Notes: generated by a model from the letters alone, not told the origin. DNA of 32,000 bases from Candidatus Brocadia sp. (GCA_021650915.1 CP091279.1:1740001-1772000), one strand, 5' to 3'. Positions 9,226 through 32,000 are shown, counted from the first letter of the stretch. A program made the numbers and translations.

Positions 9226-9307
9226 GCTTTTGAGTACAATCTATGCGAATCCCTTGCCGGCGCCAGGAGGGCGCCCTTGCTTAATTTTAGATATTTCCCT
9301 ACGCACG

Positions 9308-13404: not shown

Positions 13405-13753
13405 TTTTTCCTCCCGCCTTACTATTCTCGTATTAAATCAATAAAAAGGACCTTTTTGTATTTCACCGTTACTTTTGCCGCTAACAAGCCTCCTTTCGCA
13501 AAAAATGATTTCCTTCTTACTTCAAACAAAAAAAGCCCTGCCACCGATTTTTACTCAATCTTTACCTTCGACAGTAAGGCTATCTTTCTCTCTTCCTGCT
13601 TCTGCAGGAAGATATTCAAAAGACCCTGTTACTTTGCGTCCCCTGATCACTCAGGGTTCGCCTTTATCGTTATAATATTACTGTGTAAGAACTTCTTTTT
13701 TTGTAAGTTTTTTCACAAACCTCTTTCAGAAGGTACCGTTTTTTATGAGTGAA

Positions 13754-18334: not shown

Positions 18335-18371
18335 TTGACAAAGACATGGAATTCATGCATATTAATGCATA
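18335..18371 (+). promoter_or_regulatory. Candidate vapBC promoter/operator
   Basis: TTGACA at 18335-18340, with AT-rich -10 candidates (CATATT/ATTAAT) 17-20 nt downstream. ATGCATAT occurs twice (18354-18361, 18364-18371) at 10-bp spacing, and ATGCAT is itself palindromic. AGGAGG lies at 18391-18396 before ATG 18404. Confidence 0.3.
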
Positions 18372-18403
18372 TCTTAAAGCATCTTTTGTTAGGAGGCAAA
18401 TTC

Positions 18404-18601
18404 ATGAGGACAACAATAAACATCGATGACGCGTTGCTTGATAAGGCAGCGAAGTTAACCGGTATTGGGGAAAAAACGTCACTGGTGAGACTCGCTCTCG
18501 AAGCGCTCATTGCACAGGAAAGCGCCAGGCGACTCGCTAAATTGGGAGGCACTGAAAAGAAACTGAAGATGATACCGCGAAGGAAGGCAACAGGCGCATA
18601 A
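18404..18601 (+). CDS. vapB: Type II antitoxin, VapB family
   Basis: 65 aa, MRTTINIDDALLDKAAKLTG..., a typical VapB/DUF2191-like N-terminus. There is a strong SD (AGGAGG). The stop is 1 nt before the PIN gene start. The upstream extension of the ORF to 18335 is unlikely to be real. Confidence 0.8.
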   Translation: MRTTINIDDALLDKAAKLTGIGEKTSLVRLALEALIAQESARRLAKLGGTEKKLKMIPRRKATGA

Positions 18602-18602
18602 G

Positions 18603-18959
18603 ATGGTTCTCGTTGACACTTCCATATGGGTAGTGCATTTGCGGAACGGAGACATTGGGCTTGAAACACTGCTCAATGAGGGAAGCGCGGTATGTCATCC
18701 ATTCATCGTTGGTGAGCTTGCTTGCGGCAATCTCAAAAACAGGGCTGAAATACTTTCTCTCCTGCAAACGCTTCCTATGGCAATCCCTGGAGAACACGAA
18801 GAAGTAATGAGATTCATAGAAGATCATGCGCTTATGAGGAAAGGGTTAGGGTACATCGACATTCACTTGATTGTCTCGGCTGTAATAACTGGTATCCCTC
18901 TGTGGACAGTTGACAAGAAACTCGACGAGATTGCTCTAAAACTGGGGATAGGGTACTAA
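18603..18959 (+). CDS. vapC: Type II toxin, PIN-domain ribonuclease VapC
   Basis: 118 aa, MVLVDTSIWV... (first catalytic Asp), with later acidic residues in PIN-like positions. It is tightly coupled to vapB (TAA-G-ATG). Confidence 0.8.
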   Translation: MVLVDTSIWVVHLRNGDIGLETLLNEGSAVCHPFIVGELACGNLKNRAEILSLLQTLPMAIPGEHEEVMRFIEDHALMRKGLGYIDIHLIVSAVITGIPLWTVDKKLDEIALKLGIGY

Positions 18960-19092: not shown

Positions 19093-19392
19093 CTACCGTC
19101 TGGAGTTGTTAATCTCCCGCACCACCCTGGATATTAACTTTTCGTATGCCTGGAGGAGCCTTCCCTGCTCATTCTTTTCGAAGGATTTTATAGGCCTGAG
19201 CTCTATTTCACCGATCATGTCGTCAATTTTTTTTGCCAGTGACAGGGCAGGATTCATTTCTTCACCAGACTTTGTCCGGATATCGGGTTGTTTTAATCTT
19301 TCTTTCTGAGGTTTTTTATCGGAAGGTTTCTGACCAGATATAGGCCTCTTTGAAGACTTGCCTCCGGGATTGGTATTTTTTGCTTCATTCAT
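19093..19392 (-). CDS. Hypothetical small protein (basic, Lys/Pro-rich N-terminal half and helical C-terminal half)
   Basis: 99-aa ORF 47 nt downstream of, and co-oriented with, the 171-aa ORF. I recognise no family. Confidence 0.45.
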   Translation of the reverse strand: MNEAKNTNPGGKSSKRPISGQKPSDKKPQKERLKQPDIRTKSGEEMNPALSLAKKIDDMIGEIELRPIKSFEKNEQGRLLQAYEKLISRVVREINNSRR

Positions 19393-19439
19393 AATTTTTA
19401 CTCCTTATCTGAGAAAATGAACCCCTCCACAAAAATCTT

Positions 19440-19955
19440 TTAAAATATCTCATCCTCTTCCAAAGAATCTTGTATCTGTTCCGCAATATCCAGGACGTCT
19501 TCATTGGTGTCTTCCATGTCAGAAATGACGTCTCCCATGGAGACCATGCTTGATTTTATTCCTTCCAGATTCTTTTCAATGTCATAAACTTTTTTTACCA
19601 CATCATCCATACTCTTGCTTTTGGCTGTAAGATCTTTTAACCCGGATTCCATTCTTTTCCCTGTCTCCTGAAAATTCTTTAGCGCAGACTCCATCTGCTT
19701 CTTGTTTGCCTGCAGAATCTTTTCTGATGAAGCGGACAGCTTTTCCACCGCCTCTATACGCTTTCCCAGGGTATCGATTTTTTTTGCCACAGCATCGAAC
19801 GATTTTATCAGAGAAGAAAAATCTGCCGTAAAGGTCTTGATTTGCTTCTCAATCTCTTTTACCCCTTTATCCTTCGATACTGCGATTTTTGGCCGACCGG
19901 ATACTTGTTTTGCATTCGTTTTTTTCATGTTTTTTGTGGTAACTATTTTTACCAC
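19440..19955 (-). CDS. Hypothetical coiled-coil protein with acidic C-terminal tail
   Basis: 171-aa ORF. Heptad-like K/E-rich repeats (IEKQIKTF.., KKIDTLGKRIEAVEKL.., MESALKNFQETGKRMESGLKDL..) are followed by DMEDTNEDVLDIAEQIQDSLEEDEIF. The start is ambiguous: GTG 19955 or ATG 19928. Confidence 0.5.
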   Translation of the reverse strand: MVKIVTTKNMKKTNAKQVSGRPKIAVSKDKGVKEIEKQIKTFTADFSSLIKSFDAVAKKIDTLGKRIEAVEKLSASSEKILQANKKQMESALKNFQETGKRMESGLKDLTAKSKSMDDVVKKVYDIEKNLEGIKSSMVSMGDVISDMEDTNEDVLDIAEQIQDSLEEDEIF

Positions 19956-20493: not shown

Positions 20494-21360
20494 ATGATCG
20501 AAGAAGCGAGCATTATCATTCCCGCCTATAATGAGAGAGAAGGGATTTCAGCGGTAATTGAATCGCTGCAATCATTGAAAAAAAGACTCGATAACCGATG
20601 GGAGATTATTGTTGTAGACGATGGCTCAACCGACGGGACATCTGAAACGATACAGAATGCCCCCGAAGTGGTGCTAATCCGGCACCCCTTCAACCGCGGT
20701 TACGGTGCTGCCATTAAAACCGGCATCCGGCACGCAAAATATCATACCGTGGTGATATCAGATGCCGACGGGACATACCCCCTACAGGATATTCCCCGGC
20801 TTCTCACCCCCATGGCAAAGAGTGACATGGTCGTTGGCGCCCGGGAAAACAATGATGCCAATATCCCCTTCATAAGACGACCTGCAAAGTGGATATTAAA
20901 CAAACTCGCCAATTATCTGACCGGCAGAAAAATTCCAGACCTGAACTCAGGATTACGGGCAATGAAAAAGGACGTCGTCATGCAATTTATCCATCTCTTG
21001 CCCGATGGTTTCTCTTTCACGACAACGATTACCCTTGCCATGCTCACCAATGACTACACGGTTGAATTCGTCCCTATCGAATATCACAGGCGTTCAGGAA
21101 GATCAAAGATCCGCCCTGTTCGGGACACCTTAAACTTTCTTCAGCTCATCATACGGACGGTTTTATATTTTGATCCCCTCAAGATCTTTTTACCGATAAG
21201 CGCATTCTTCTTCATCGCAAGCATCGCCGTTCTTGTGCTGAGTTATTTATTTACTCCCAAAGTTATGGACATCACTACCGTCATCCTTTTTATCTCCGGA
21301 GTGCAAATTCTTGCCATTGGCATGATTGCCGACCTTATCGATAAAAGGAGCCGGTCATGA
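20494..21360 (+). CDS. GT2 polyprenyl-phosphate glycosyltransferase (GtrB/ArnC/DPM1-like)
   Basis: 288 aa with IIIPAYNE, VVDDGSTDGT and a DXD motif (SDAD). Two C-terminal TM helices (IFLPISAFFFIASIAVLVLSYLF, ITTVILFISGVQILAIGMIADLI) are the hallmark of lipid-phosphate sugar synthases. AAGG lies 7 nt before the ATG. Confidence 0.8.
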   Translation: MIEEASIIIPAYNEREGISAVIESLQSLKKRLDNRWEIIVVDDGSTDGTSETIQNAPEVVLIRHPFNRGYGAAIKTGIRHAKYHTVVISDADGTYPLQDIPRLLTPMAKSDMVVGARENNDANIPFIRRPAKWILNKLANYLTGRKIPDLNSGLRAMKKDVVMQFIHLLPDGFSFTTTITLAMLTNDYTVEFVPIEYHRRSGRSKIRPVRDTLNFLQLIIRTVLYFDPLKIFLPISAFFFIASIAVLVLSYLFTPKVMDITTVILFISGVQILAIGMIADLIDKRSRS

Positions 21361-22775
21361 AAATTCTTTTGATTAACCCCCCTTCAGAAAATGAACTGCT
21401 TGGCAACAACCCCAGCATTATCGAAGAAGAACGCGGTTATAATCCGCCCCTGGGCATATTGTACATCGCCGGTTATCTGGAGAGGCATACAGATTTTCAT
21501 GTGGAGGTACTGGATACCCAGGCAGAGGAGATCGGATACGACCGGTTAGGAAGTATTATTCGGTCAAAATTGCCGGACGTCGTTGGCATTACCACCATGA
21601 CCTTCACCCTGATAGACGTCATAAAAGTTGTTGATCTGGTGAAATCTGTTTGTCCGCATACAAGAGTGGTGCTGGGCGGTCCCCATGTACACATCTATCC
21701 CGAAGAAACCATCACTCTTCCCGGGGTCGATTTTCTGGTCCTGGGCGAGGGAGAAATTTCCTTTAAAGAGCTCGCAGAAAATATCGATAACAAGACCCGA
21801 TTAAAAAGCATTCCCGGCCTGGTCTTTCAAGAAAACGGCAGAGTTATCAACACCGGCTCACGGCCACTGAATGATGACCTCGACAGCCTGCCTTTTCCTG
21901 CCAGACATCTGACCCCGATCCAAAAATACCGTTCCCTCATGGCAAAGAGAACCCCTATTACCACCATGTTTACCAGCCGGGGCTGCCCCTACCGGTGTAC
22001 CTTTTGTGACCGGCCACATCTCGGCAAGAGTTTCCGCGCACGATCTGCATTGAACGTGGTGGACGAAATGGAGGCGTGTGTGAAGCTGGGCATACGGGAA
22101 TTCCTGATCTATGATGACACCTTTACCATTGACAGACAGCGTGTCATAGATGTATGCAATGAGATTACACGAAGAAGACTCAACATCGGATGGGACATCA
22201 GGGCGCGGGTAAATAACATTGACAGAGAGCTGTTAAAGAAACTGAAAGAGGCAAATTGTGAACGCATCCATTACGGGGTGGAATCGGGCAATCCTGAAAT
22301 ACTCAGGATATTAAATAAGGGAATCACCGTAGACCGGGTAAGGACAACTTTTAAAGAAACGAAAGATGCAGGAATATCCGTTCTCGCGTATTTCATGATC
22401 GGGTGCCCAAAAGAAACAAGGAAAGAAATCATGGAAACGATTGCATTTGCCAGGGAGTTAAAGCCCGATTTTGCGCATATCACTATATTCACACCGTTCC
22501 CTGCCACAGAGATATATAAAACGGGACTAAAGGACGGTATTATCAAACATGATTTCTGGAAGGAGTTTGCCAGAAATCCGAAGAAAGGTTTTCAGCCACC
22601 GTGCTGGCAAGAGCATTTTACCCGCGAGGAGATTCAGGAGTTACTGGTGTATGCCTATAAGAGTTTCTATACCCGACCATCCTACATCCTGAAGAGACTC
22701 ACCCACATCCGGTCACCTGGTGAGTTTATAAGAATGGCGCGGGCGGGACTCAAGGTCTTTGGGATGCGATCGTAA
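21357..22775 (+). CDS. B12-binding-domain (class B) radical SAM enzyme
   Basis: 472 aa. The N-terminal region is Rossmann-like and cobalamin-binding-like (KILLINPP, GILYIAGYL, DVVGITTMTF, VVLGGPH). It is followed by CPYRCTFC (CxxxCxxC). The start ATG overlaps the GT2 stop (ATGA at 21357-21360). Confidence 0.85.
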   Translation: MKILLINPPSENELLGNNPSIIEEERGYNPPLGILYIAGYLERHTDFHVEVLDTQAEEIGYDRLGSIIRSKLPDVVGITTMTFTLIDVIKVVDLVKSVCPHTRVVLGGPHVHIYPEETITLPGVDFLVLGEGEISFKELAENIDNKTRLKSIPGLVFQENGRVINTGSRPLNDDLDSLPFPARHLTPIQKYRSLMAKRTPITTMFTSRGCPYRCTFCDRPHLGKSFRARSALNVVDEMEACVKLGIREFLIYDDTFTIDRQRVIDVCNEITRRRLNIGWDIRARVNNIDRELLKKLKEANCERIHYGVESGNPEILRILNKGITVDRVRTTFKETKDAGISVLAYFMIGCPKETRKEIMETIAFARELKPDFAHITIFTPFPATEIYKTGLKDGIIKHDFWKEFARNPKKGFQPPCWQEHFTREEIQELLVYAYKSFYTRPSYILKRLTHIRSPGEFIRMARAGLKVFGMRS

Positions 22776-22941
22776 AAGGGCTTTCTAAACAAGGAGCATG
22801 CCGTTTCACATCCGGCAGAGCGCCTCTTGTTTATCAACTGAACACATTGCTCAATTTAGCCCTTTGGCGCCTTTTACCACCCATTTCTTCTCGTTTACGG
22901 GGGGATGAAATAAAAATGAAGCATTACCGTTTTTCATCATC

Positions 22942-25488
22942 TCACGGTTTCAACGGATCATAGAGATCCGGCAGTGAGTAGACGATGTAGACGTTTAGCG
23001 CGATGAAGAGAAGAAGATAGAGGTAACAGGTGGTTTTCGCAATGGTAACGGTAGTCCGGTGACGGAGAAAATCAACAGCGAAAAACGGTATGATACCTAT
23101 GGCGAGGTAATACCGATACAACCATTGCGACTGGTAGACATTGACGGGAAGGACTTCTTTTACCGGAACGGCGATAAGGATTAAGAGTATCAGAAGCGCC
23201 TTTGCGGTATTCGGTTTTGCGATGAGATCCCGGATAAATAACCCCCCGGCAACTGCCATAAACGGATATATCGGCATAAGAAACCAGCCAAAGGGATAGA
23301 TGTCCGTTGACAACGCACAGATCGTCATGAGGAAAATAAGCACCGTTACCGGAACAGTCAGATCCCGCCTTCCCATGGAATATACGAGCACAAACCAGAG
23401 CCACCAGTAATAGCCCGTTCCAAAATGAGCATAGTTTAGGGTAAGGCGAAAATTACTCAAATATTTCACCACCATATCGAATACGGCGCTTTGGTGCGTA
23501 TCCCGTAATGACATCACCTTGGAAAAAGCCTCCGGATTGATCAGATAACAATACAAAAAATAACTCACGGCAATGACAAAACCCATTCCGGCAGCTATGC
23601 CAGCTTCTTTCCGGAAACCCTTGTAGCCCAATAATAAGGGGACGATCACGATCGCGCAGACACCCGTTTCCTTGCACCAGAGCGAAATTCCGGCCAATGC
23701 CCCGGCGCCGACGATATACCTCTTTTTTCCCGACTCGGTGTATTGCAGGACACACAAGACCCCTGAAATAAGGACGAGCGCAAGGAGGCCGTCGCCTTTG
23801 GCGATTCGACCGGCAGCAACAAAGAGCGGCACCGTAGCATAAAGCAAACTGGCAATTATAGACGTTGAATAAGAACGGTATAGTTTATAAGAAACAGAAA
23901 ATACCAGCAGAATGGTAAGCGTAGAGAAGAAAATGGGCGTTATATTGATGGTTGTTAATCTGCAATCCAAATACCCCTTTGCACCGCAAATTGTCGGCGG
24001 AATACCTGCAAAGATGGAAAACAAGGGGGGATGGGCAATGTAGCGTTTTACGATCGTGAAACGGTCCCCAAACCATTGAAGGGCGTTCTTGTCCCCGTTT
24101 TTATACGCCGACACAAAATATGCACCTTCCCACGACTTAGGCCCTTCACCGTGGAGGATATGATAACCATTCCACGCCTCCTGGTAGACGTCCATGGTAT
24201 CCCCATGAGGGGGGATTACGCTGTAATGGTTGAGTCTGAGAACCGCACCGAGAATTACGATAAAAATCAAGGCCACAACCGGCCAGTTTTGTTGCATATA
24301 CGCAGCATAGCTTTGAAAATACCTTTTTCTTTTCTTTTTCAATACGAGAAACAAGGCAAAACCAAGAGACACAGCTACCGATGCAACAAGAAATCCTCCT
24401 GCACACCACCATCTGGCCTTTCCAAAGCCCCCCCGATTTCCCGAGGGCATGAAATATCGTGATGGAATATTTGTAAGCCTGCTATCGCCCGGTTTCTGCC
24501 AGCGCAGATTCAGTTTTGCATATTTGGCAGTGTTAACGTAATTTACCTGTATCGGTTTCCAACCCTTCCCAAGATGAACTTGTATTTTTGAATCACCTCC
24601 GGCTCGGTATTTCATAACGGGCTTTGAATCGATAAACAGGACCATCTCCCCATTCGTGTCCGCATGAAAGAGGTACTTGCCGTCTGCTGGTATCCAAAGA
24701 GAACCCCGCCAGACGATATTGTAGGGCGGAACATCTTCTGGTGGTCTGAACCGCTGGTTATCCCAGTAATTCACGTAATAGGTTCTCAGCATTCCGAAAT
24801 TCCGGAAGGCTATGGCAGGATCATTTTTTCTGAATACGATGACGCCTTCGTCGATGACGCTCCCTAGCTCAATTTGAAGGGTATAAGGCATAGCAGTGTC
24901 AACCGCATTTCCATCGCAATGTGCTGTTTCATGATAAAATTGAGATGCTGGCACTATGGTCTCTTGTGCATTTGGCGCTTTCCATTTCAGGGAAAGCGCT
25001 GCCCCTCCTCCCACGTCAAAGTATCGCATATGAAAACGATAAAATCCTGGTTCAAGGAATATCGTCCTTCTTTTTTTCACAATCCCATGCAGACCGCCGT
25101 TATCGATAACCTTTTTATCATTCAGAAATAATTCTGACCCATCATCTGAACCCAATACAAAAGTATAATCACCACGACCATCTACTTTTAAAAATCCGTC
25201 CCATTCAATCGTAAAGGGTGAACGATAAGATTTTTGCGCCTCGCCAGGCCAGTTAAAATCCAGAGGCATGCCGTCATGGTTTCCCTTGATAAGCTTCTTT
25301 TTGGGGTAGCCCTCATAGACCTTCTTCATGAGGCCGGAACTCAACCCGGATGCGGATACCTTTACAGGACGGAACGGAATATTTTCTGTCTTCGGTTCAG
25401 CTGCCGGAAAATACAAGTAATACCCCGTCAATCCGCGATTGGGGAGGAGCAATTGGATACCCGAATAGATGCCAGCAATGAGCAGCAT
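22942..25488 (-). CDS. Membrane glycosyltransferase-like protein: signal-anchor, two PA14 domains, ArnT/PMT-like (GT-C, GT39/83-type) polytopic domain
   Basis: 848 aa. PA14-1 spans roughly aa 19-187 (GDYTFVLGSDDGSELFLNDKKVIDNGG...RYFDVGGGAALSLKWKAP). A more divergent PA14-like repeat spans roughly aa 230-345 (GKYLFHADTNGEMVLFID...VNYVNTAKYAKLNLRWQKPG). From about aa 365 there are at least 10 TM helices, a DVYQEAWNGYHILH loop and HPPLFSIF, reminiscent of the ArnT/PMT_2 N-terminal loop. Confidence 0.75.
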   Translation of the reverse strand: MLLIAGIYSGIQLLLPNRGLTGYYLYFPAAEPKTENIPFRPVKVSASGLSSGLMKKVYEGYPKKKLIKGNHDGMPLDFNWPGEAQKSYRSPFTIEWDGFLKVDGRGDYTFVLGSDDGSELFLNDKKVIDNGGLHGIVKKRRTIFLEPGFYRFHMRYFDVGGGAALSLKWKAPNAQETIVPASQFYHETAHCDGNAVDTAMPYTLQIELGSVIDEGVIVFRKNDPAIAFRNFGMLRTYYVNYWDNQRFRPPEDVPPYNIVWRGSLWIPADGKYLFHADTNGEMVLFIDSKPVMKYRAGGDSKIQVHLGKGWKPIQVNYVNTAKYAKLNLRWQKPGDSRLTNIPSRYFMPSGNRGGFGKARWWCAGGFLVASVAVSLGFALFLVLKKKRKRYFQSYAAYMQQNWPVVALIFIVILGAVLRLNHYSVIPPHGDTMDVYQEAWNGYHILHGEGPKSWEGAYFVSAYKNGDKNALQWFGDRFTIVKRYIAHPPLFSIFAGIPPTICGAKGYLDCRLTTINITPIFFSTLTILLVFSVSYKLYRSYSTSIIASLLYATVPLFVAAGRIAKGDGLLALVLISGVLCVLQYTESGKKRYIVGAGALAGISLWCKETGVCAIVIVPLLLGYKGFRKEAGIAAGMGFVIAVSYFLYCYLINPEAFSKVMSLRDTHQSAVFDMVVKYLSNFRLTLNYAHFGTGYYWWLWFVLVYSMGRRDLTVPVTVLIFLMTICALSTDIYPFGWFLMPIYPFMAVAGGLFIRDLIAKPNTAKALLILLILIAVPVKEVLPVNVYQSQWLYRYYLAIGIIPFFAVDFLRHRTTVTIAKTTCYLYLLLFIALNVYIVYSLPDLYDPLKP

Positions 25489-25919
25489 GACGAGAAGGGT
25501 TATAAAAAGTCCCTTTGATTTTGTGAATGGTTCCGTAGAGATTGCTCATTTCCTTTCAGTAAAAGGCAGCATTGCCGGTTCTCTCTTTTTTCAAGATTAT
25601 ATTCTTATGAACGCCCTTTGTAAAGGAATCAAACTATTTGTATGTTTTATTGAAAAAATACCTGAAAGGTTGTATATTCTTAAAAATTAACGGCATCTCC
25701 ATTCCTGATGCAGGCCAGGAAAAGGCATAGTGTCTGGTAATGGTGGGTTCGCTCCGCTCAACCCACCCTACCATAAACCCGCATAAATACGATGAATATT
25801 CCCATAATAATCGCGTTAATTGATTCGATTTTAGAAAGAGAAAAAGATACGTAAATTAGGTTGGGTTTTAAAAGACAAAAACCCAACGACTTTTCGATAC
25901 ATAGCAAATGCCATGATAA

Positions 25920-26022
25920 ACAACCCCCCTCGCCCCCTTTATTAAGGGGGATATCCACCCCCTACCCCCGCCAGCGGGGGACAGGGAAGTCCCCCTTACC
26001 AAAGGGGGATTCAGGGGGTTGT
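25920..26022. other. ~103-nt element: three C5/G5 hairpins enclosed by a 9-bp outer stem (four-way-junction-like)
   Basis: The outer stem is ACAACCCCC (25920-25928) paired with GGGGGTTGT (26014-26022). The inner hairpins are CCCCCTTtattAAGGGGG (25933-25950), CCCCCGccagCGGGGG (25965-25980) and CCCCCTTaccaAAGGGGG (25991-26008). The element ends 44 nt before ATG 26067. Confidence 0.6.
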
Positions 26023-26066
26023 CTGGTATGCTATGATACAAGATTGAAATTCCTTAACATCAAGAA

Positions 26067-28472
26067 ATGACTTATGTTATTTTCCTTATCATTGTTTCTC
26101 TCCTGACAGGATTTTTGCTTACCTATGTCCTGGCATCGGGGTACTCCCTCTTTGAAAGAGTTGCTTACGGAGCAGCGATAGGGTTAGGACTTCACACCTG
26201 GCTTGTGTACCTCTTTTCCCTCCTTTGGAAACTTCAGTTCAGATGTATTTATCTTTCAACCGGCTTACTGATTGTTTTCTGTTCACTCTTTCTCTGGGTC
26301 AAATGGCCGTCACTGACAGAAAAGATCCTGAGTGAAATCCGGGAGATAAAAGACGATTTTCTTTCCCATAAGGCGTCTTATTGTGCGCATCTTGCAGTAT
26401 TTTCTTTCTTTACCGTCCTGTTCTGGCGTCTCTTTTCCAGAACAATCCTTGTCAAAGAAGACGGCCTGTATGTTGGTCTCACCAATAATTTTGGCGACCT
26501 CCCCCTCCACATGGCCTACATCACCTCTTTTGTTTGGGGAAATAATATTCCCCCGCAGGATCCTTCCTTTGCGGGCGAAAGGCTGGTTTACCCCTTTCTC
26601 TCCGACTTCCTCTCTGCTCTCTTTCTCAAGTTGGGTTTATCGTTCAGCGACATCCTCTTCATTCCTGGCTTATTGCTCACGGTTTCCCTGTATGGCATCC
26701 TCTATTATTTTACCTATCGTTTGACGAAAAGAAGGCTCGCTGCACTTATATCGCCCTTTCTTTTCTTTTTCTCCGGGGGGTGTGGTTTCTACTACTTCTT
26801 TCATGACCTTGCATGTACATCTCAAACGCCCTGGTCATTTCTCATGCATCTGCCCCGCGACTACACGAAAATTCCGTCACTGAATTACCACTGGATCACT
26901 CCCTTGACCTGCCTCAATGTGCCGCAACGGGCTTTTCTTTTCGGATTTCCGGTCACCCTGATAATCTTTTCTCTCCTTTACACTGGTATCAGGAATAAGC
27001 AATGGAGGGAATTCCTCTTTGCCGGCATCCTTACCGGGGCATTACCTTTCCTTCACTCACACAGTTTTCTGGCTGTACTGATGGTCGCGATACCGTGGGG
27101 TCTCATCTTTTGGGATTGGCAAAGGTGGTTGCTGTTCTTTCTGCCGGCCTTTATCCTGTCACTGCCACAGGCGCTTTATCTATCCGGACACGTGGGGGGT
27201 GGAAGTTTTTTTAAACCAGCATTTGGCTGGATGGCAGGGAACGAAAACCTTCTCTGGTTCTGGTTAAAAAATACCGGGCTTTTCTGGCCTTTAATAATAG
27301 CCGGATTCATAACGATCTTCATTTTTCATAAGGGCACGAAGCGCCGTGCCCCTATACATACCGGACTATATTCTTTGCCCTTTTTGATACTTTTCCTGGC
27401 GCCAAATCTGGTGCTCTTCGCACCCTGGGACTGGGACAATATCAAAATATTTATTTATTGGTTTTTAGGAACCACCCCAATGGCGGCATTTGCACTTGCT
27501 TGTTTATATAAAAATGACTGCTTCAAAATGCTCTCAAAAGCGGGCTTTTTTATCATCATGTTTTTTCTTGTCGCCGCAGGTGGTATCGACATCTTTAAAT
27601 ACGCCATAGCGCCCGTCACGGGATGGAAGGAATTTAGCGCTGAGGAAATGGAGCTTGCTAGGCAAATCTCCACAACAACCCCCCCTGACGCCGTATTTTT
27701 AAATGCACCCACGTTTAATCATCCGGTTTTTTTGTCCGGAAGAAAATCTCTGATGGGCTATCCTGCCCATATATGGAGTCATGGTTATGCTGGCGCTCAG
27801 CGGCGCGAACAGGACATCGAAAAGATGCTAAAGGGGAAGCCCAATGCCCGGTCATTGATCAATACCTATCATCCGTCTTATGCTGCAATTGGCCCACACG
27901 AAAGGCGCATGGGTGCAAACAAGGAATTTTTTGACACCAATTACCCGATCATTCTTACCACGAATAATTACACAATGTATGATCTTGCCGGACGGCGGGA
28001 AAAACCGCCGTCCCGCTCTGAGATAATGGGAGAGATGAATTTAACCGACCAAAAGCATGGACTACGAATACGGTATTATGATAGCATACACTGGAAAAAT
28101 AAACCCGTGGACGAGGGCATTGTTGAACACATCGGATTCAGCTGGGATAATGAAGAAAGGAAGCCGGTATCAAGTCCTTTTGGCGTTATCCTGGAAGGGT
28201 TCCTTGATATTCAGATTTCCGGCACATACACCTTTAAGATAACATCAGATGATGGTTCCTGGCTTTTTTTAGATAACGTCCTGATCATAGACAATGGCGG
28301 TCACCATGCAATGAAGTCTGCTACAGCCGCCCTTGCGTTGGAAAAAGGGCTGCACAAAATCATGATTCAGTATTTTGATGCAGGCGGGGGAGCCATTCTT
28401 AACCTTTCGTGGACACCTCCGGGAGGCGTAGAATCGGAGATACCGGCAGAACAATTGTATACAAAAGAGTAA
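26067..28472 (+). CDS. Polytopic membrane protein (GT-C-like, family not recognised) with C-terminal PA14 domain
   Basis: 801 aa with about 14 hydrophobic helices in aa 1-520 and an early loop NNFGDLPLHMAYITSF..YPFLSDF. A soluble region follows. PA14 lies at roughly aa 665-797 (GTYTFKITSDDGSWLFLDNVLIIDNGG...QYFDAGGGAILNLSWTPPGG). Confidence 0.7.
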   Translation: MTYVIFLIIVSLLTGFLLTYVLASGYSLFERVAYGAAIGLGLHTWLVYLFSLLWKLQFRCIYLSTGLLIVFCSLFLWVKWPSLTEKILSEIREIKDDFLSHKASYCAHLAVFSFFTVLFWRLFSRTILVKEDGLYVGLTNNFGDLPLHMAYITSFVWGNNIPPQDPSFAGERLVYPFLSDFLSALFLKLGLSFSDILFIPGLLLTVSLYGILYYFTYRLTKRRLAALISPFLFFFSGGCGFYYFFHDLACTSQTPWSFLMHLPRDYTKIPSLNYHWITPLTCLNVPQRAFLFGFPVTLIIFSLLYTGIRNKQWREFLFAGILTGALPFLHSHSFLAVLMVAIPWGLIFWDWQRWLLFFLPAFILSLPQALYLSGHVGGGSFFKPAFGWMAGNENLLWFWLKNTGLFWPLIIAGFITIFIFHKGTKRRAPIHTGLYSLPFLILFLAPNLVLFAPWDWDNIKIFIYWFLGTTPMAAFALACLYKNDCFKMLSKAGFFIIMFFLVAAGGIDIFKYAIAPVTGWKEFSAEEMELARQISTTTPPDAVFLNAPTFNHPVFLSGRKSLMGYPAHIWSHGYAGAQRREQDIEKMLKGKPNARSLINTYHPSYAAIGPHERRMGANKEFFDTNYPIILTTNNYTMYDLAGRREKPPSRSEIMGEMNLTDQKHGLRIRYYDSIHWKNKPVDEGIVEHIGFSWDNEERKPVSSPFGVILEGFLDIQISGTYTFKITSDDGSWLFLDNVLIIDNGGHHAMKSATAALALEKGLHKIMIQYFDAGGGAILNLSWTPPGGVESEIPAEQLYTKE

Positions 28473-28676: not shown

Positions 28677-28895
28677 ATCGTATTTAAGCAAAGCTATTTC
28701 TTTTTTTATTTGCTCCTATTTGATCATAAGTGGTGACTATGCAGAGCATTGTAAAATAATTCACAAAAATATTTTTACTCAGCAATATCATGGCTTTTAT
28801 TTTGCGAACATTAATAAAATAGTAATTCCCAACCCGAACGAGTCGGAAAAGAAATACGGATAGGGGTAGGAAAGGCTTTCGCCTCTCCTCCCTCC

Positions 28896-28928
28896 GAACC
28901 GTACAGGCGGGTCTCCCGCATACGGCTC
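28896..28928 (-). ncRNA. Group II intron domain V (catalytic hairpin)
   Basis: The minus strand reads GAGCCGUAUGCGGGAGACCCGCCUGUACGGUUC. This is the conserved ~34-nt domain V pattern, with the AGC triad and a 2-nt bulge. Confidence 0.85.
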
Positions 28929-28933
28929 TCCAG

Positions 28934-29518
28934 TCAGTGGTTACCCCTTCGGGGTTGACAGGCTAATGCATGGGCTGCGGTTAATGTGAACAACCCAAGA
29001 TTAGCAAAGTACGCATTTGGCCATCTCTGATGGTCTGCACCTCGGCCTCTTCCTTTCCCTCCCCGACGCTTTCTCAGGATGCTCCTCAGTCTCATTCGTA
29101 TCCAACGGTCTATTCTTGGAAATGTCGTTTTGTGGCTGTATTTAAAGTATTCATACCAGCCTCTGAGACTTTGGTTGAGTTCTCCTGTTATACATTTCAT
29201 GCTCTCTCCTGATGTTCGTCTTGTCTTGTGGCGGATAGTCTCTTTGAACTTATTCATACTCTTTTTTGCGTGGCCATCTCATCTCTCGTTCAAAGTGATA
29301 CCCCAGAAAGTCAAATCCTCCCTCTTGGGTTGCATCTACTATTTTGGTCTTCTCTGGATGCAGTGTCAGCCCTCTTGCTTCGAGCATTCCTTTCATTTCT
29401 TCCAATGCCCTCTTTGCTTCTTCTTCATTTCTGCACAGAATAACGCTATCATCTGCATACCTGACCATCTCATGCCCCAGCCTTGCCATTTCGTGGTCTA
29501 TCTTACTTAGTGTCTGAA
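28934..29518 (-). pseudogene. Group II intron RT/maturase, C-terminal part (RT motif with YADD, then X/maturase domain), frameshifted
   Basis: ORF 29250-29567 contains ...HEMVRYADDSVILC...FDFLGYHF..RWPRKK. ORF 28934-29257 contains MNKFKETIRHKTRR...LRGWYEYF...RWPNAYFANLGLFTL. The two frames overlap at a T6/A6 run (29262-29267). No HNH endonuclease domain is present. Confidence 0.85.
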
Positions 29519-31359
29519 CGAAAACGCACTTTTTGTAAAAGTGCGAGGTCGATTTTCTATTTACCAATAGATAATTTTAAGATTTGAGATTAGGGTTTTT
29601 GGCAAAAATACTGTTCTTTTACATATTTCCCTTGTTTTCCCCTTTATTTTAGCCTTGTCTGGGCGTACCTGCCTCCCGGCAGACTGTTTTTCTTCGTGTT
29701 TTTTGCTTGCTTAGGCGGCTTTTCGCAACTTTTCGCACTGCTTCCGTGCCTTCTCCTGCAGCACGTTTCCCAGCTTGTGCAAATTCGCAGCTAACACGCC
29801 CATTGCACAATATCTTTTAAAGGCATGCAGCCCTTTGTCCGGACACCTATCCAAGCCGTGATGCTCCAAACGATTGATATCCGATTCTACCGCCGAGTGC
29901 TTGTGCCTTAGCTTCTTAAATGTCTTACCCGATTCCTCTTCCTGTTCCGCCTTATTCTTCTTGCCCTTCTTGGGAAGGATTACCTCTGGTATATACAAAC
30001 TCAGCAACTCTTTATTCTCTTTCTTGTAAAAACCTTTATCAAAACTTATACTCTTTATTGTGCCTTCTCCGTAACGGCTCAACAACCTATCTGCCAATGG
30101 AATTACCAACGATACATCCGCCTGTTTTTCTCCTACCACATGGTCCACGATGAAACCCCACTGATCGCTTGCTACCAGAATATTATGTCCCAACTCTACC
30201 CTTTTGTTTGACTTGCCTTTGTACAGCCACTCCGTATGCGGCTCAAACAACGAATGAACCTTTTCTGCCGCCGGTATTACCTCATCCCGGATCACCCTTC
30301 TCTCCACCAGGTCTATCTGTTTATTCAACATCCCGTGAAAATACTCCAGTGTCCCTATTTTCCCTGCATGCTTGTCTACCTGGTTCGTCGTTAGCACCTT
30401 TTCGTAGATGGCTAACAGACTCGCTCCTATCTTTTCACTCAAACCCCTCGATAATTCCAAGTAACTCCTCACATGCTCTTCCTTGTTTTTCCCCCCGCTG
30501 CTTGACGCCTTTGCGCTTATCCTCATCAGCTTTTTTAACTCTCTCCTCCAATATTTGCTCTTGCGCCATCCTTTCCCCGCCAGGATGCCTTCCTCTATTG
30601 CATCCTCTATCATGTCCAGACTCTTGCGTCCCGCATCCCACAATAAATTCATATCGGTCGGAAAGTGTACATTCGTCTCTAACACATACGTATCCACCTT
30701 AATACACAGTCCTTCGTCCTTTTTTTTAACCAACTGATGCCCCGATGATATCACCACTTCATTTATCTGCCTGAGGGTCTCCTCATCCAACAATCTTATA
30801 TTGTCCTTGATGCTCTGCATCGAAAAAACCTTCGCCTCTCCAAATGCCGTCTCAACCCCCATTATCTGCCTGATAAGTTTGTGATGGTTGGCAAAATCCT
30901 CCAACCTGTCATAATCGGCATCTAACCCTAATCTTACCACCGACAACACCAAAATATGCCATAAATCCATCCCATATCTTCCCGTCTTTTTCTTCCCCTT
31001 CGTTACCTTCGCCTCTAATATCCGGAATACCTCCTCGTTCAACTCCGGTGTAACATAGATATGTTGCAACGCCCTCAGTATCGGTGGTAGCTCATCTCGA
31101 CTCTTTATTGGCAGTTTTACCCCTGAAATGGGTATGATGCCAAGCTTCAATTGCTGCTCAAATCTCTTTCTCATCTTCTATCGAATGTCCTTTGGCTAGT
31201 GGGTTAATGAACCGAATATTTGGACTCTTTATACCCAGAATCCCTTCATTTTCGCCATATTTTACCCTTTTACCCGAAAAAATTCAATGACTTTCATGAA
31301 CATTTTTCACCAGCTTCTCCTTACTTTACAGGGCTCTGGGGGGTTTCCGTTCAAACACT
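29519..31359 (-). mobile_element. IS element (1841 bp), single DDE transposase, inserted inside the intron RT gene
   Basis: The imperfect terminal IRs are AGTGTCTGAACGAAAACGCAC (left) and AGTGTTTGAACGGAAACCCCC (reverse complement of the right end), matching at 17 of 21 positions. The flanking direct repeat is ACTT (29515-29518 and 31360-31363). Removing the IS and one ACTT restores ...LANLYLSKIDHEMARLGHEMVRYADD. Confidence 0.8.
29711..31174 (-). CDS. DDE transposase (IS4/IS5-superfamily type; I recall similar N-termini annotated as ISNCY family)
   Basis: 487-aa intact ORF. Candidate DDE residues lie in IKVDTYVLETN, SISFDKGFY and HSAVESDINRLEHHGLDRC. The N-terminus MRKRFEQQLKLG...KSRDELPPIL...GRYGMDLWHILVL is typical of this transposase group. 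Confidence 0.8.
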   Translation of the reverse strand: MRKRFEQQLKLGIIPISGVKLPIKSRDELPPILRALQHIYVTPELNEEVFRILEAKVTKGKKKTGRYGMDLWHILVLSVVRLGLDADYDRLEDFANHHKLIRQIMGVETAFGEAKVFSMQSIKDNIRLLDEETLRQINEVVISSGHQLVKKKDEGLCIKVDTYVLETNVHFPTDMNLLWDAGRKSLDMIEDAIEEGILAGKGWRKSKYWRRELKKLMRISAKASSSGGKNKEEHVRSYLELSRGLSEKIGASLLAIYEKVLTTNQVDKHAGKIGTLEYFHGMLNKQIDLVERRVIRDEVIPAAEKVHSLFEPHTEWLYKGKSNKRVELGHNILVASDQWGFIVDHVVGEKQADVSLVIPLADRLLSRYGEGTIKSISFDKGFYKKENKELLSLYIPEVILPKKGKKNKAEQEEESGKTFKKLRHKHSAVESDINRLEHHGLDRCPDKGLHAFKRYCAMGVLAANLHKLGNVLQEKARKQCEKLRKAA

Positions 31360-31995
31360 ACTTAGATATAGGTTCGCCAATAATGGACTTATTACCGCCC
31401 CCTGTGGTGTCCCCTTCTCTGCTTCCCATTCTTTGAGTCCGTCCATTGTCCCCTGCTTCAGATACCCTTCTATCATCTCCAGTATCCTTCCGTCTGCTAT
31501 CTGTTCCTCCACCTCTTCCATCACCTTGTCATGGGGAATGCTGTCAAAGTAACTCTTGATGTCTGCATCTACTACCCATGGGTATCCATTCTTCAAGAGT
31601 TCTTCCACTCGCCTCAGCGCATCTTTACATCCTCGTCCTGGCCGAAAACCGTAACTCTGTTCTGCAAATGTATTCTCAAATATCGGCTCCATTACATTCC
31701 TCATCGCCGTTTGCACAATTCGGTCGGTGACCACGGGGATTCCTAATGGCCTCTTTTCCTTGCTTCCTATCTTCGGTATCCACACCCTCTTGACGGGTTT
31801 TGCCCTGTAACTCCCCGCTCTGAGTATCTTCTCTAATTCCACAAGATTCTTTTCCGCTTCCTTCTCATACGCCTCGATGCTCTGCCGGTCTACTCCCGCA
31901 GCCCCTTCATTGCTCCTCACCTTTTCCCATGACGCTCTCAGGTTCTCGCTTGAGTACACCTTGTCCACCAGACTAAACCATTTGCCTCCTTTCAC
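31360..31995 (-). pseudogene. Group II intron RT/maturase, N-terminal part (RT domains 0-4), truncated by the IS insertion
   Basis: MKGGKWFSLVDKVYSSENL..AGVDRQSIE...RPLGIPVVTDRIVQTA...YGFRPGRGCKDAL...DADIKSYFDSIPH...GTPQGAVISPLLANLYL. The frame then reads into the IS end and stops (SSV*). Confidence 0.85.
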
Positions 31996-32000
31996 TCCTT

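What the first reader, a model, noticed from the sequence alone, without database searches (positions are those of the whole stretch)
20494..28472. Candidate uncharacterised glycosylation module: GtrB-like GT2, class-B radical SAM and two PA14-bearing polytopic transferase-like proteins
Seen in sequence: a GT2 with DXD and two C-terminal TM helices overlaps by ATGA a B12/radical-SAM gene. Immediately next to these come a convergent 848-aa protein and a divergent 801-aa protein. Both are large multi-TM proteins carrying PA14 domains.

Established knowledge: GT2 enzymes of this layout (GtrB, ArnC, DPM1, PpgS) load a sugar onto polyprenyl phosphate. GT-C enzymes (Gtr type-specific transferases, ArnT, PMTs) then use that lipid-linked sugar outside the cytoplasmic membrane. 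PA14 is a carbohydrate-binding beta-barrel.

Inference: this is a lipid-carrier-dependent surface glycan or glycoprotein modification system in which three things differ from the textbook case.
- No GtrA-like flippase is visible.
- A radical SAM enzyme is coupled to the donor synthase.
- The transferases carry their own lectin-like acceptor-recognition domains.

I do not know a characterised system with this combination.
Basis: partly seen in the sequence, partly recalled or inferred. Interest (0 to 1): 0.72.

Follow-up and report, generated by a model that had tools for sequence, protein, structure and literature searches.

The report
Anammox lipid-carrier glycosylation gene island
Four neighbouring genes of an anammox bacterium (Candidatus Brocadia) most likely load a sugar onto a membrane lipid carrier, alter it with a B12/radical-SAM enzyme, and pass lipid-linked sugars to two membrane transferases that carry their own sugar-binding (PA14) domains. 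The enzyme pair at the core is conserved from bacteria to archaea, and I found no description of it.

Summary
The window holds:
- a 288-aa GT2 with DAD motif and two C-terminal TM helices;
- a 472-aa class-B radical SAM overlapping it by ATGA;
- a convergent 848-aa protein (P3): signal anchor, 2 PA14 domains, PMT_2 membrane module;
- a divergent 801-aa protein (P4): polytopic module plus C-terminal PA14.

The GT2 aligns end to end with ArnC, DPMS and GtrB. Predicted structures of both membrane modules hit GT-C enzymes: ArnT, Emb and PMT for P3; DPY19, STT3 and AftA for P4.

New here: the GT2–rSAM pair is conserved. An orthologous GT2 lies in 15 of 17 rSAM-ortholog loci across about 10 phyla including archaea, against 0 of 63 paralog loci. 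In relatives it travels with a class-I methyltransferase, an MprF-type flippase-like protein (once fused to the rSAM), and GT-C proteins carrying PA14 or discoidin domains.

Brocadia relatives have five PA14/GT-C paralog groups. This window keeps two and lacks the methyltransferase, the flippase-like gene and the GT-C that directly follows the pair elsewhere.

So this is a lipid-carrier extracytoplasmic glycosylation island with a radical-SAM tailoring step, a new variant of a known kind. The rSAM chemistry, the acceptor, and whether P3 and P4 use the rSAM product remain unproven.

The parts
20494..21360 (+). GT2 polyprenyl-phosphate glycosyltransferase-like protein (288 aa): GT-A domain with DAD motif and a C-terminal two-helix TM hairpin
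   Evidence: PF00535 at 113 bits. Full-length phmmer matches to ArnC 9bhc (1e-21), DPMS 5mlz and GtrB 5ekp. Best NCBIfam hits are AglJ, Dol-P-hexose transferase, ArnC and PpgS, all below their equivalog cut-offs.
21357..22775 (+). Class-B (B12-binding domain) radical SAM enzyme, 472 aa, translationally coupled to the GT2 by an ATGA overlap
   Evidence: PF02310 plus PF04055. C210/C214/C217 are invariant. Best named family is HpnJ at 235 bits against a cut-off of 578. Best solved structure is AprD4 6fd2. An orthologous GT2 lies in 15/17 ortholog loci against 0/63 paralog loci.
22942..25488 (-). P3 (848 aa as called): N-terminal signal anchor, two periplasmic PA14 domains, one TM followed by KKKRKR, then a PMT_2-type GT-C module. 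The true start may lie upstream, up to 25542.
24946..25341 (-). P3 PA14 domain 1 (aa 50-181), with an SDDGS motif
   Evidence: Pfam PA14 best stretch 50-181. phmmer and Foldseek matches to RsgI PA14 6qdi/6qe7 and MpPA14.
24439..24801 (-). P3 PA14 domain 2 (about aa 230-350). It has no DD motif (ADTNGE instead).
   Evidence: Second PA14 stretch. Beta strands at 257-348 in the model. Aligns to the second PA14 of Kuenenia-type P4 homologs.
22945..24306 (-). P3 GT-C membrane module (about aa 395-848), with the invariant D433 motif HGDTMDVYQEAWNG in the first periplasmic loop
   Evidence: PMT_2 at 43 bits against a gathering score of 26, and a weak PMT hit. Foldseek: ArnT 5ezm 2.5e-7, EmbB, AglB, Pmt4, STT3, PglB. 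Invariant columns.
25489..26066 (.). Divergent intergenic region between P3 and P4, with promoter-like hexamers on both strands
   Evidence: Sites at 25624-25596 (-) with 11/12 matches and 25650-25678 (+) with 10/12. The number of sites in the region does not exceed shuffles, so this is weak evidence.
26067..28016 (+). P4 GT-C-fold polytopic module plus periplasmic domain (aa 1-650), with the invariant NxGDLPxH motif (D144)
   Evidence: AF2 model with pLDDT 87. Foldseek: DPY19 7zlh 3.4e-8, STT3, AftA 8if8 with TM 0.52, PglB. PA14-less homologs at 32-40% identity sit beside GT2, GtrA and PMT genes. Invariant columns.
28053..28451 (+). P4 C-terminal PA14 domain (aa 663-795), with an SDDGS motif
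   Evidence: Pfam PA14 at 80 bits. PDB matches 6qdi at 1e-21 and MpPA14.

Best explanation
The region is the remaining core of a cell-envelope glycosylation island of an anammox Brocadia. It works on the lipid-carrier (Gtr/Arn-type) principle.

Step 1 (inferred from homology): the GT2 transfers a sugar from a nucleotide sugar to polyprenyl phosphate at the cytoplasmic face of the membrane.

Step 2 (inferred from strict cross-phylum synteny, translational coupling and a natural fusion to a lipid-flippase-like domain): the class-B radical SAM enzyme alters that sugar while it is still on the lipid. The most plausible reactions are C-methylation, or an HpnJ/AprD4-like radical rearrangement or deoxygenation. 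The chemistry is unknown.

Step 3: in relatives a class-I methyltransferase adds a further modification and an MprF-type (LPG_synthase_TM) protein probably flips the product. Both genes are missing from this window, so a gene elsewhere in the genome would have to do the flipping.

Step 4 (fold shown, activity inferred): P3 and P4 are GT-C glycosyltransferases with periplasmic catalytic loops. Their PA14 domains hold on to a carbohydrate acceptor. They transfer lipid-linked sugar onto an extracytoplasmic glycan or glycoprotein. The heavily O-glycosylated, methyl-sugar-rich S-layer protein of anammox bacteria is the obvious candidate.

Whether P3 and P4 use the rSAM-tailored donor or another polyprenyl-P-sugar is open; I put it at about even odds.
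For: - The domain and fold assignments hold.
- The GT2 matches ArnC, DPMS and GtrB over its whole length, including the TM hairpin.
- An orthologous GT2 lies in 15/17 rSAM-ortholog loci against 0/63 paralog loci, p=2e-14. The hosts are Planctomycetota, PVC, FCPU426, Nealsonbacteria/Patescibacteria, Polyangia, Phycisphaera, Pseudomonadota, Altiarchaeota and Methanosarcinales.
- LPG_synthase_TM lies next to the pair in L006, L008, L012, L013, L015, L018 and L088, and is fused to the rSAM in L054.
- The orthologous methyltransferase is present in 8 loci.
- GT-C proteins with a lectin domain flank the pair in three lineages: PMT_2+PA14 in the PVC loci L010/L011, group D in the anammox loci L017/L088/L089, and PMT_2+discoidin plus polytopic+discoidin in L093.
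- Relatives of the rSAM at 35-43% identity are fused to methyltransferase, GT2 and GT4 domains.
- The cluster is syntenic in Brocadia-type genomes, always beside aroK.
- P4-like proteins without PA14 sit with GT2, GtrA and PMT genes.
- The positive-inside rule and the conserved signal anchor place PA14 and the Asp loops in the periplasm (sequence).
- Anammox S-layer O-glycans carry methylated HexNAc and dimethyl-deoxyhexose and have no assigned biosynthetic genes (PMC5088730; bioRxiv 10.1101/2020.12.03.409086).
Against: - There is no biochemical evidence for any step.
- The window lacks the methyltransferase, the flippase-like gene and the GT-C (group D) that directly follows the pair in relatives.
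- In Kuenenia and in L084, P4-type and C-type proteins lie more than 10 kb from any GT2-rSAM ortholog, next to a different, shorter GT2.
- A crude count of large polytopic ORFs shows no enrichment near ortholog loci: 10/17 against 28/63, p=0.41.
- One ortholog locus (L096) shows no Pfam-recognisable GT2 neighbour.
- The P3 model is only moderately confident, at pLDDT 63.
- The P3 and P4 membrane modules are not detectably homologous to each other: hhalign probability 6%.
- The closest named rSAM (HpnJ) makes an end-product head group, not a donor.
Confidence: 0.6

Rival explanations
1. Mosaic of independent systems. GT2-rSAM is a self-contained donor-making pair whose own transferase (group D) and methyltransferase were deleted or moved in this genome. 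P3 and P4 are Gtr-type GT-C enzymes that use a different, unmodified polyprenyl-P-sugar made by another GT2. They lie next to the pair only because envelope glycosylation genes cluster together.
For: - In B. sinica-type and Brocadiaceae loci the pair is followed directly by the methyltransferase and group D, not by P3 or P4.
- In PVC bacteria the pair is followed by a group-C homolog.
- P4-type plus C-type genes in Kuenenia and L084 sit beside a short 223-242-aa GT2 with no orthologous rSAM within 10 kb.
- PA14-less P4 homologs sit with GT2, GtrA and PMT genes and no rSAM.
- The locus is visibly rearranged: there is an rSAM fragment in L088, and a group II intron plus IS lie next to P4 here.
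Against: - P3 and P4 orthologs stay within about 10 kb of the pair in all three Brocadia-type genomes examined.
- No second GT2 lies within the 32-kb window.
- Lectin-bearing GT-C proteins flank the pair in an independent lineage that uses a different lectin domain.
Confidence: 0.25
2. Lipid head-group remodelling, analogous to HpnI/HpnK/HpnJ or calditol synthase. The GT2 glycosylates a membrane lipid, and the rSAM converts the sugar (for example by ring contraction to a cyclitol) into a stable head group. That head group is an end product rather than a glycosyl donor. P3 and P4 are functionally unrelated neighbours.
For: - The best named family for the rSAM is HpnJ, at 1e-69 over nearly its full length.
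- HpnJ and Cds act on lipid-linked sugars (PMC13459092).
- A polysaccharide deacetylase lies between the GT2 and the rSAMs in L054, which parallels the HpnI-HpnK-HpnJ order.
- The MprF-type domain fused to the rSAM is known for flipping a finished lipid.
Against: - The score of 235 bits is far below the HpnJ cut-off of 578.
- The GT2 resembles ArnC, GtrB and DPMS; HpnI does not appear among its hits.
- The pair is embedded in glycan-assembly clusters with GT-C, Wzy_C, DegT and GT4 genes.
- It also occurs in CPR bacteria and in archaea.
Confidence: 0.1
3. P3 and P4 are not transferases. They are polysaccharide-sensing or anchoring membrane proteins, with PA14 as the sensor as in clostridial RsgI anti-sigma factors, and a degenerate GT-C-like scaffold.
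For: The best PA14 matches, by both sequence and structure, are RsgI anti-sigma sensor domains 6qdi and 6qe7. P4 has no Pfam glycosyltransferase hit.
Against: - The first-loop Asp and many other polar membrane-module residues are invariant down to 23-35% identity.
- P3 passes the PMT_2 gathering score.
- Both models give GT-C fold matches.
- P4 relatives sit in GtrA/GtrB-type contexts.
- Neither protein has a cytoplasmic signalling domain.
Confidence: 0.05

Closest known systems
Gtr three-component O-antigen glucosylation (GtrA flippase, GtrB Und-P-Glc synthase, type-specific GT-C Gtr*)
   Same: A GT2 synthase with a C-terminal TM hairpin that aligns full-length with GtrB. One or more GT-C enzymes act outside the cytoplasm. 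PA14-less P4 homologs sit in true GT2/GtrA/GT-C clusters.
   Different: There is no GtrA in the window. An rSAM is obligatorily paired with the synthase. The GT-C proteins carry PA14. Relatives use an LPG_synthase_TM-type putative flippase.
Arn pathway (ArnC, ArnD, ArnE/F, ArnT)
   Same: ArnC is the best solved-structure match of the GT2, and ArnT is the best GT-C match of P3. The Arn pathway sets the precedent for modifying the sugar on the lipid carrier before flipping: ArnD deformylates Und-P-Ara4FN (established knowledge).
   Different: Tailoring here is by a class-B radical SAM rather than a deformylase. The NCBIfam equivalog scores for ArnC and ArnT are far below their cut-offs. The acceptor is unlikely to be lipid A.
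Pentofuranose three-component systems and mycobacterial arabinan assembly (PMC11127046; DprE1/E2; EmbC, PMC3044687)
   Same: A cytoplasmic enzyme tailors the lipid-linked sugar (ORF13 epimerase, DprE1/E2). The flippase family varies between systems. Several GT-C paralogs occur. GT-C enzymes carry a C-terminal carbohydrate-binding module that binds the acceptor glycan (ORF12 residues 503-652; EmbC C-terminal domain).
   Different: Those donors are made from PRPP, not by a GT2. The tailoring there is redox epimerisation, not radical SAM chemistry. The binding module here is PA14.
HpnI/HpnK/HpnJ (BHT cyclitol ether) and calditol synthase Cds
   Same: A glycosyltransferase is followed by a B12-domain radical SAM that acts on a lipid-bound sugar. 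HpnJ is the best-scoring named family for this rSAM (PMC13459092).
   Different: The lipid there is a hopanoid or a GDGT. The GT2 here is not HpnI-like. The score is below the equivalog cut-off. Those products are end-product head groups, whereas the context here is glycan assembly.
Sugar-modifying class-B radical SAM enzymes of aminoglycoside pathways (AprD4 diol dehydratase; GenK-type C-methylases)
   Same: AprD4 is the best solved-structure match, at 7.5e-34. These enzymes perform radical chemistry on sugar ring carbons.
   Different: Their substrates are soluble pseudo-oligosaccharides. There is no lipid carrier and no GT2 coupling.
Eukaryotic/actinobacterial protein O-mannosyltransferases (GT39 PMT)
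   Same: P3 hits PMT_2 and PMT and Pmt4 and Pmt1 structures. PMTs also carry a lectin-like accessory domain (MIR) on the luminal side (established knowledge).
   Different: The accessory domain here is PA14, placed N-terminally behind its own signal anchor rather than in loop 5. The donor and acceptor are unknown.

Membership tests
Polyprenyl-phosphate glycosyltransferases of GT2 (GtrB/ArnC/DPMS/PpgS type) | GT-A GT2 catalytic domain with a DXD motif | tested here: met
   PF00535 at 113 bits. DAD at residues 90-92 in the sequence.
Polyprenyl-phosphate glycosyltransferases of GT2 (GtrB/ArnC/DPMS/PpgS type) | C-terminal TM hairpin, and end-to-end alignment with characterised members | tested here: met
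   Residues 2-282 align to ArnC 7-295, and residues 4-282 to GtrB 27-311. Two hydrophobic helices lie at about 230-281.
Polyprenyl-phosphate glycosyltransferases of GT2 (GtrB/ArnC/DPMS/PpgS type) | Equivalog-level identity with a named enzyme, which would give the sugar specificity | tested here: not met
   AglJ 143 against a cut-off of 325, ArnC 94 against 529, PpgS 85 against 370. The sugar is unknown.
Polyprenyl-phosphate glycosyltransferases of GT2 (GtrB/ArnC/DPMS/PpgS type) | Transfer of a sugar to polyprenyl phosphate | not testable with these tools
   Needs an enzyme assay.
Class-B (cobalamin-dependent) radical SAM | CX3CX2C cluster motif in a radical SAM core, with an N-terminal B12-binding domain | tested here: met
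   PF04055 at 100 bits and PF02310 at 85 bits. C210/C214/C217 are invariant.
Class-B (cobalamin-dependent) radical SAM | Actual cobalamin binding. AprD4, the closest solved structure, is known from the literature not to use it. | not testable with these tools
   Needs spectroscopy or a structure.
HpnJ / BchE equivalogs | Score at or above the NCBIfam trusted cut-off | tested here: not met
   HpnJ 235 against 578; BchE 198 against 481. The source name 'Mg-protoporphyrin cyclase' is therefore not supported.
GT-C glycosyltransferases, for P3 (PMT_2, GT39/GT83-like) | Family HMM above the gathering score | tested here: met
   PMT_2 at 43.0 bits against 26.1. The ArnT equivalog is not met, at 21 against 567.
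GT-C glycosyltransferases, for P3 (PMT_2, GT39/GT83-like) | GT-C fold | tested here: met
   Foldseek: ArnT 2.5e-7, EmbB, AglB, Pmt4, STT3, ALG9, PglB. The model is only pLDDT 63 overall, but 75-92 for aa 520-650.
GT-C glycosyltransferases, for P3 and P4 | Conserved acidic residue in the first extracytoplasmic loop | tested here: inconclusive
GT-C glycosyltransferases, for P4 | GT-C fold | tested here: met
   Model at pLDDT 87 and pTM 0.78. Foldseek: DPY19 3.4e-8, STT3 2.5e-7, AftA with TM 0.52, PglB.
DUF2298 / Chlor_Arch_YYY (for P4) | Family HMM above its cut-off | tested here: not met
   TIGR03662 at 23 bits against 300. P4 has no PF10060 hit. There are only weak PF10060 hits in some PA14-less homologs.
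PA14 carbohydrate-binding domain | Family HMM and beta-barrel fold | tested here: met
   81 and 80 bits against a gathering score of 24. Matches to RsgI and MpPA14 structures.
PA14 carbohydrate-binding domain | Adjacent Asp-Asp calcium/sugar site, as in Flo/Epa/MpPA14 lectins | tested here: inconclusive
   SDDGS is present in P3 PA14-1 and in P4. P3 PA14-2 has ADTNGE instead. Presence of the motif does not prove sugar binding.
Three-component extracytoplasmic glycosylation system | Synthase, dedicated flippase and GT-C encoded together | tested here: not met
   The synthase and GT-C are present. No GtrA, SMR, MATE or LPG_synthase_TM gene lies in the 32-kb window. Relatives do carry LPG_synthase_TM.

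The most novel reading that the evidence does not exclude
The GT2-rSAM pair defines a widespread, uncharacterised four-component system found in bacteria and archaea. In it a cobalamin-type radical SAM enzyme performs carbon-centred chemistry on a sugar while the sugar is attached to polyprenyl phosphate. That would be the first radical SAM enzyme known to act on a lipid-carrier-linked glycosyl donor. An MprF-like flippase exports the product. Lectin-tethered GT-C enzymes (PA14 in anammox and PVC bacteria, discoidin elsewhere) install the unusual sugar on surface glycans, including the anammox S-layer.
Probability: 0.35. Interest if true: 0.8.

Novelty: new variant of a known kind. Interest (0 to 1): 0.62.

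Why it matters
**The enzyme pair.** Lipid-carrier (Gtr/Arn/DPA-type) glycosylation is well understood, and the known on-carrier tailoring steps are deformylation and redox epimerisation. A radical SAM step at this point would add C-methylation, deoxygenation or rearrangement to the chemistry available for extracytoplasmic sugars. It would also give a function to a very conserved orphan family (60-67% identity across phyla) that sources currently name as a BchE-type cyclase.

**Anammox bacteria.** The genes behind their unusual S-layer and matrix glycans are unassigned. The expanded set of PA14-bearing GT-C paralogs supplies concrete candidates. The natural differences between Brocadia genomes (methyltransferase and group D present or absent) give a ready-made comparison for glycoproteomics.

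Tried and rejected
- The profile-profile comparison of the P3 and P4 alignments aligned only the PA14 domains. Restricted to the membrane modules it was not significant (probability 6%), so I do not claim that the two modules are homologous.
- A crude enrichment test for large polytopic ORFs near ortholog loci was negative (p=0.41). The GT-C association therefore rests on individually verified neighbours, not on statistics.
- Promoter and terminator scans gave no more sites than shuffles.
- Rfam found nothing inside the finding itself.
- Literature searches for radical SAM together with GtrB, GT-C or polyprenyl found no relevant paper. The anammox glycan papers name no biosynthetic genes.
- I rejected the source annotation 'anaerobic Mg-protoporphyrin cyclase', because BchE scores below its cut-off.
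- I rejected a ladderane-lipid rSAM, because TIGR04072 scores 143 against a cut-off of 360.
- I rejected an HpnI/HpnJ hopanoid pair, because the GT2 is not HpnI-like.

Full report
**Observation.**
- The GT2 (20494-21360, 288 aa) has PF00535 at 113 bits, a DAD motif and two C-terminal hydrophobic helices.
- Its stop overlaps the start of the 472-aa B12-domain radical SAM gene as ATGA. That gene has PF02310 and PF04055, and its CxxxCxxC motif is invariant in orthologs.
- P3 (22942-25488, minus strand, 848 aa) has two N-terminal PA14 domains and a PMT_2 module above the gathering score.
- P4 (26067-28472, 801 aa) is polytopic with a C-terminal PA14.
- Identical proteins occur in NCBI assembly GCA_000987375.1 and in Logan assemblies, and sources label them Candidatus Brocadia sp.. 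From memory that assembly is Ca. Brocadia fulgida; I did not verify this with a tool.

**Family assignments.**
- GT2: it aligns over its whole length, TM hairpin included, with ArnC, archaeal DPMS and GtrB. Its best NCBIfam hits are AglJ, Dol-P-hexose transferase, ArnC and PpgS, all below equivalog cut-offs. It is therefore a polyprenyl-phosphate glycosyltransferase of unknown sugar specificity.
- rSAM: it scores best against HpnJ (235 bits, cut-off 578) and BchE (198 bits, cut-off 481), so it is neither. The closest solved structure is the sugar diol-dehydratase AprD4.
- P4: AlphaFold2 gave a good model, pLDDT 87. Foldseek against the PDB matched it to the C-mannosyltransferase DPY19, STT3, AftA and PglB.
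- P3: the model is moderate, pLDDT 63. It matched ArnT, EmbB, AglB, Pmt4, STT3 and PglB.
- All PA14 parts matched PA14 lectin and sensor domains.
- Each membrane module has an invariant Asp at the start of the first short helix after a TM helix: D433 in HGDTMD for P3, and D144 in NxGDLPxH for P4. This is where GT-C enzymes carry their catalytic acid (my knowledge of ArnT, PglB and PMT).

**Topology.**
The positive-inside rule puts these loops in the periplasm: KKKRKR follows the TM after the P3 PA14 domains, and KRR follows the TM after the P4 loop. Homologs of P3 begin with a clear signal anchor (MEFTKSKGLFITLLI...). The same peptide is encoded in frame just upstream of the called ATG here, though without a canonical start codon. 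The PA14 domains are therefore periplasmic.

**The conserved unit is the GT2-rSAM pair.**
- Close homologs of the rSAM (60-67% identity) occur in Anaerolineae, Elusimicrobia, Eisenbacteria and Chloroflexota.
- A scan of one genome per species returned 80 loci.
- In my phmmer analysis, 15 of the 17 loci holding an rSAM ortholog (score at least 500) also hold an orthologous GT2 (score at least 200), usually immediately upstream. The two exceptions are cut by contig ends.
- None of the 63 paralog loci has an orthologous GT2 (Fisher p=2e-14).
- The hosts span Planctomycetota, PVC, FCPU426, Nealsonbacteria/Patescibacteria, Polyangia, Phycisphaera, Pseudomonadota, Altiarchaeota and Methanosarcinales.

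**What travels with the pair.**
- A class-I SAM methyltransferase directly after the rSAM, in 8 loci.
- An LPG_synthase_TM (MprF flippase-like) protein, in 8 loci, and fused to the rSAM in a Patescibacteria genome (L054).
- GT-C proteins:
  - PMT_2 with a C-terminal PA14 right after the pair in two PVC-group genomes.
  - PMT_2 in an Altiarchaeota locus and an FCPU426 locus.
  - In L093 (rSAM 70% identical), a one-strand gene array: LPG_synthase_TM, two DegT aminotransferases, GT2, methyltransferase, PMT_2+discoidin, GT2, rSAM, polytopic+discoidin.
- Replacement of PA14 by a different lectin fold in the same positions is, to me, the best evidence that lectin-tethered GT-C enzymes work with this pair.
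- More distant relatives of the rSAM (35-43% identity) are fused to methyltransferase, GT2 and GT4 domains.
- In an Elusimicrobia genome the pair lies inside a Wzy-type glycan cluster.
- The fusion to a lipid-flippase-like domain argues that the rSAM substrate is lipid-linked.

**The anammox island.**
Full-length P3 homologs were found only in Brocadiales. P4 homologs with PA14 are likewise from anammox bacteria. The P4 membrane module alone (32-40% identity) occurs in Acidobacteriota and Thermodesulfobacteriota, once beside a divergent GT2, GtrA, PMT and a further GT2. PA14 is thus a lineage-specific addition.

In the Brocadia assembly GCA_000949635.1 the gene order is:
- aroDE, aroK;
- GT2(288), rSAM, methyltransferase, D(699);
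- A(829, the P3 type), on the opposite strand;
- B'(713), B(813, the P4 type), C(664, PMT_2+PA14);
- GT2(242).

A Brocadiaceae genome has aroK, B, GT2, rSAM, D, methyltransferase, LPG_synthase_TM and A. Pairwise comparison defines five ortholog groups of PA14-bearing polytopic proteins.

The present window has only groups A and B. The rSAM and P3 stop codons are 167 bp apart, and no methyltransferase or LPG_synthase_TM ORF exists anywhere in the 32 kb. Downstream of P4, where B. sinica-type genomes continue with group C and a second GT2, the window instead has a group II intron disrupted by an IS element. In Kuenenia and one further Brocadiales genome, groups B and C lie together next to a short GT2, with no orthologous GT2-rSAM within 10 kb.

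**Interpretation.**
The region belongs to a lipid-carrier-dependent extracytoplasmic glycosylation island.
- Shown here: the domain and fold assignments, the cross-phylum GT2-rSAM linkage, the recurrent methyltransferase, flippase-like and GT-C+lectin neighbours, and the Brocadia synteny.
- Inferred: the GT2 makes a polyprenyl-P-sugar; the rSAM modifies it on the carrier; P3 and P4 transfer lipid-linked sugar to a periplasmic or surface glycan held by PA14.
- Unknown: the sugar, the radical chemistry, the acceptor, and whether P3 and P4 use the rSAM-tailored donor.

The genes most tightly coupled to the pair in relatives are missing here, so I rate that last link at about even odds. I keep a 'mosaic of independent Gtr-like systems' as the main rival.

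A plausible biological target is the anammox S-layer protein. It carries two unrelated O-glycan types, including methylated HexNAc and dimethyl-deoxyhexose, and I found no biosynthetic genes named in the two papers I searched (PMC5088730; bioRxiv 10.1101/2020.12.03.409086).

**Comparison with known systems.**
The logic is that of the Gtr, Arn and DPA/pentofuranose systems.
- On-carrier tailoring has precedents: ArnD, DprE1/E2, and the ORF13 epimerase in PMC11127046.
- GT-C enzymes with acceptor-binding modules also have precedents: EmbC in PMC3044687, ORF12 in PMC11127046, and the MIR domains of PMTs.
- What has no precedent that I could find is a class-B radical SAM enzyme as the obligatory partner of the donor synthase, and PA14 or discoidin fused to GT-C.

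It fails the strict three-component definition in this window because no flippase gene is present. It is not an equivalog of any named enzyme.

**Verdict.**
The widely conserved, unstudied GT2-rSAM pair is the most interesting part. Interest 0.62.

Noticed in passing
window 25489-25545 (-): The 19 in-frame codons upstream of the called P3 start encode AISTEPFTKSKGLFITLLV. This is the conserved N-terminal signal anchor of homologs (for example MEFTKSKGLFITLLI...), but the stretch holds no ATG, GTG or TTG. An ATC at 25542-25540 with GAAAGGAAA about 8 nt upstream could be the real start. The homologs' ATG position reads ACG here.
   Followed up: partly
window 13567-13672 (-) and 11539-13404 (-): A c-di-GMP-I riboswitch (Rfam 53 bits, gathering score 35) lies directly upstream of a 621-aa ORF with a C-terminal Laminin_G_3/ConA-like lectin domain. 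This is probably a c-di-GMP-controlled secreted or matrix protein. A 1478-aa response-regulator/PAS/GGDEF/EAL protein is at 545-4981.
   Followed up: no
window 28860-32000 (-): The 3' end of a group II intron (domain V/VI, Rfam 57 bits) is at 28860-28930. Its reverse-transcriptase/maturase ORF is split into pieces (31351-31995, 29250-29567, 28934-29257) by an inserted IS with a DDE_Tnp_1 transposase (29711-31174). These nested mobile elements sit where Brocadia sinica-type genomes continue with more PA14/GT-C genes.
   Followed up: partly
window 6385-9225 (-) and 9110-10447 (+): A 946-aa Wzy_C (O-antigen ligase / O-oligosaccharyltransferase-type) protein with a long TPR tail lies next to a GT4 glycosyltransferase. 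Wzy_C proteins also lie near the GT2-rSAM pair in L007 (with TPR) and L095. It is a candidate O-oligosaccharyltransferase or ligase of the same envelope glycan pathway.
   Followed up: no
window 18335-18959 (+): A VapB/VapC (PIN) toxin-antitoxin pair, followed by two small coiled-coil ORFs on the minus strand (19093-19955), lies between aroK and the GT2. Small ORFs of unknown function also occupy this position in the B. sinica-type locus L089.
   Followed up: no
L088 14262-14510 (-): An 82-aa fragment matching the rSAM (117 bits) lies between the group D gene and the methyltransferase in a Brocadiaceae genome. It is a remnant of duplication or rearrangement inside the island.
   Followed up: no
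P0334, P0362, P0373, P0390, P0326: Relatives of the rSAM occur as giant multi-domain proteins. One has four tandem B12-rSAM units in 2096 aa. Another combines rSAM x2, DUF362, GT4 x3 and TPR in 2633 aa. A third reads rSAM-MT-GT2-MT-GT2-rSAM in 1879 aa. One copy is interrupted by an intein.
   Followed up: partly
L054 6826-12391 (+): A Patescibacteria locus reads GT2, polysaccharide deacetylase (ArnD/PF01522 type), a paralogous B12-rSAM, then the orthologous rSAM fused to LPG_synthase_TM. The deacetylase suggests that the lipid-linked sugar there is an N-acetyl-hexosamine, deacetylated on the carrier.
   Followed up: no
L007 9331-9996 (+): In a Nealsonbacteria genome a nitroreductase-family protein is inserted between the GT2 and the rSAM. 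It may be a redox partner, as a reductase follows AprD4-type dehydration.
   Followed up: no
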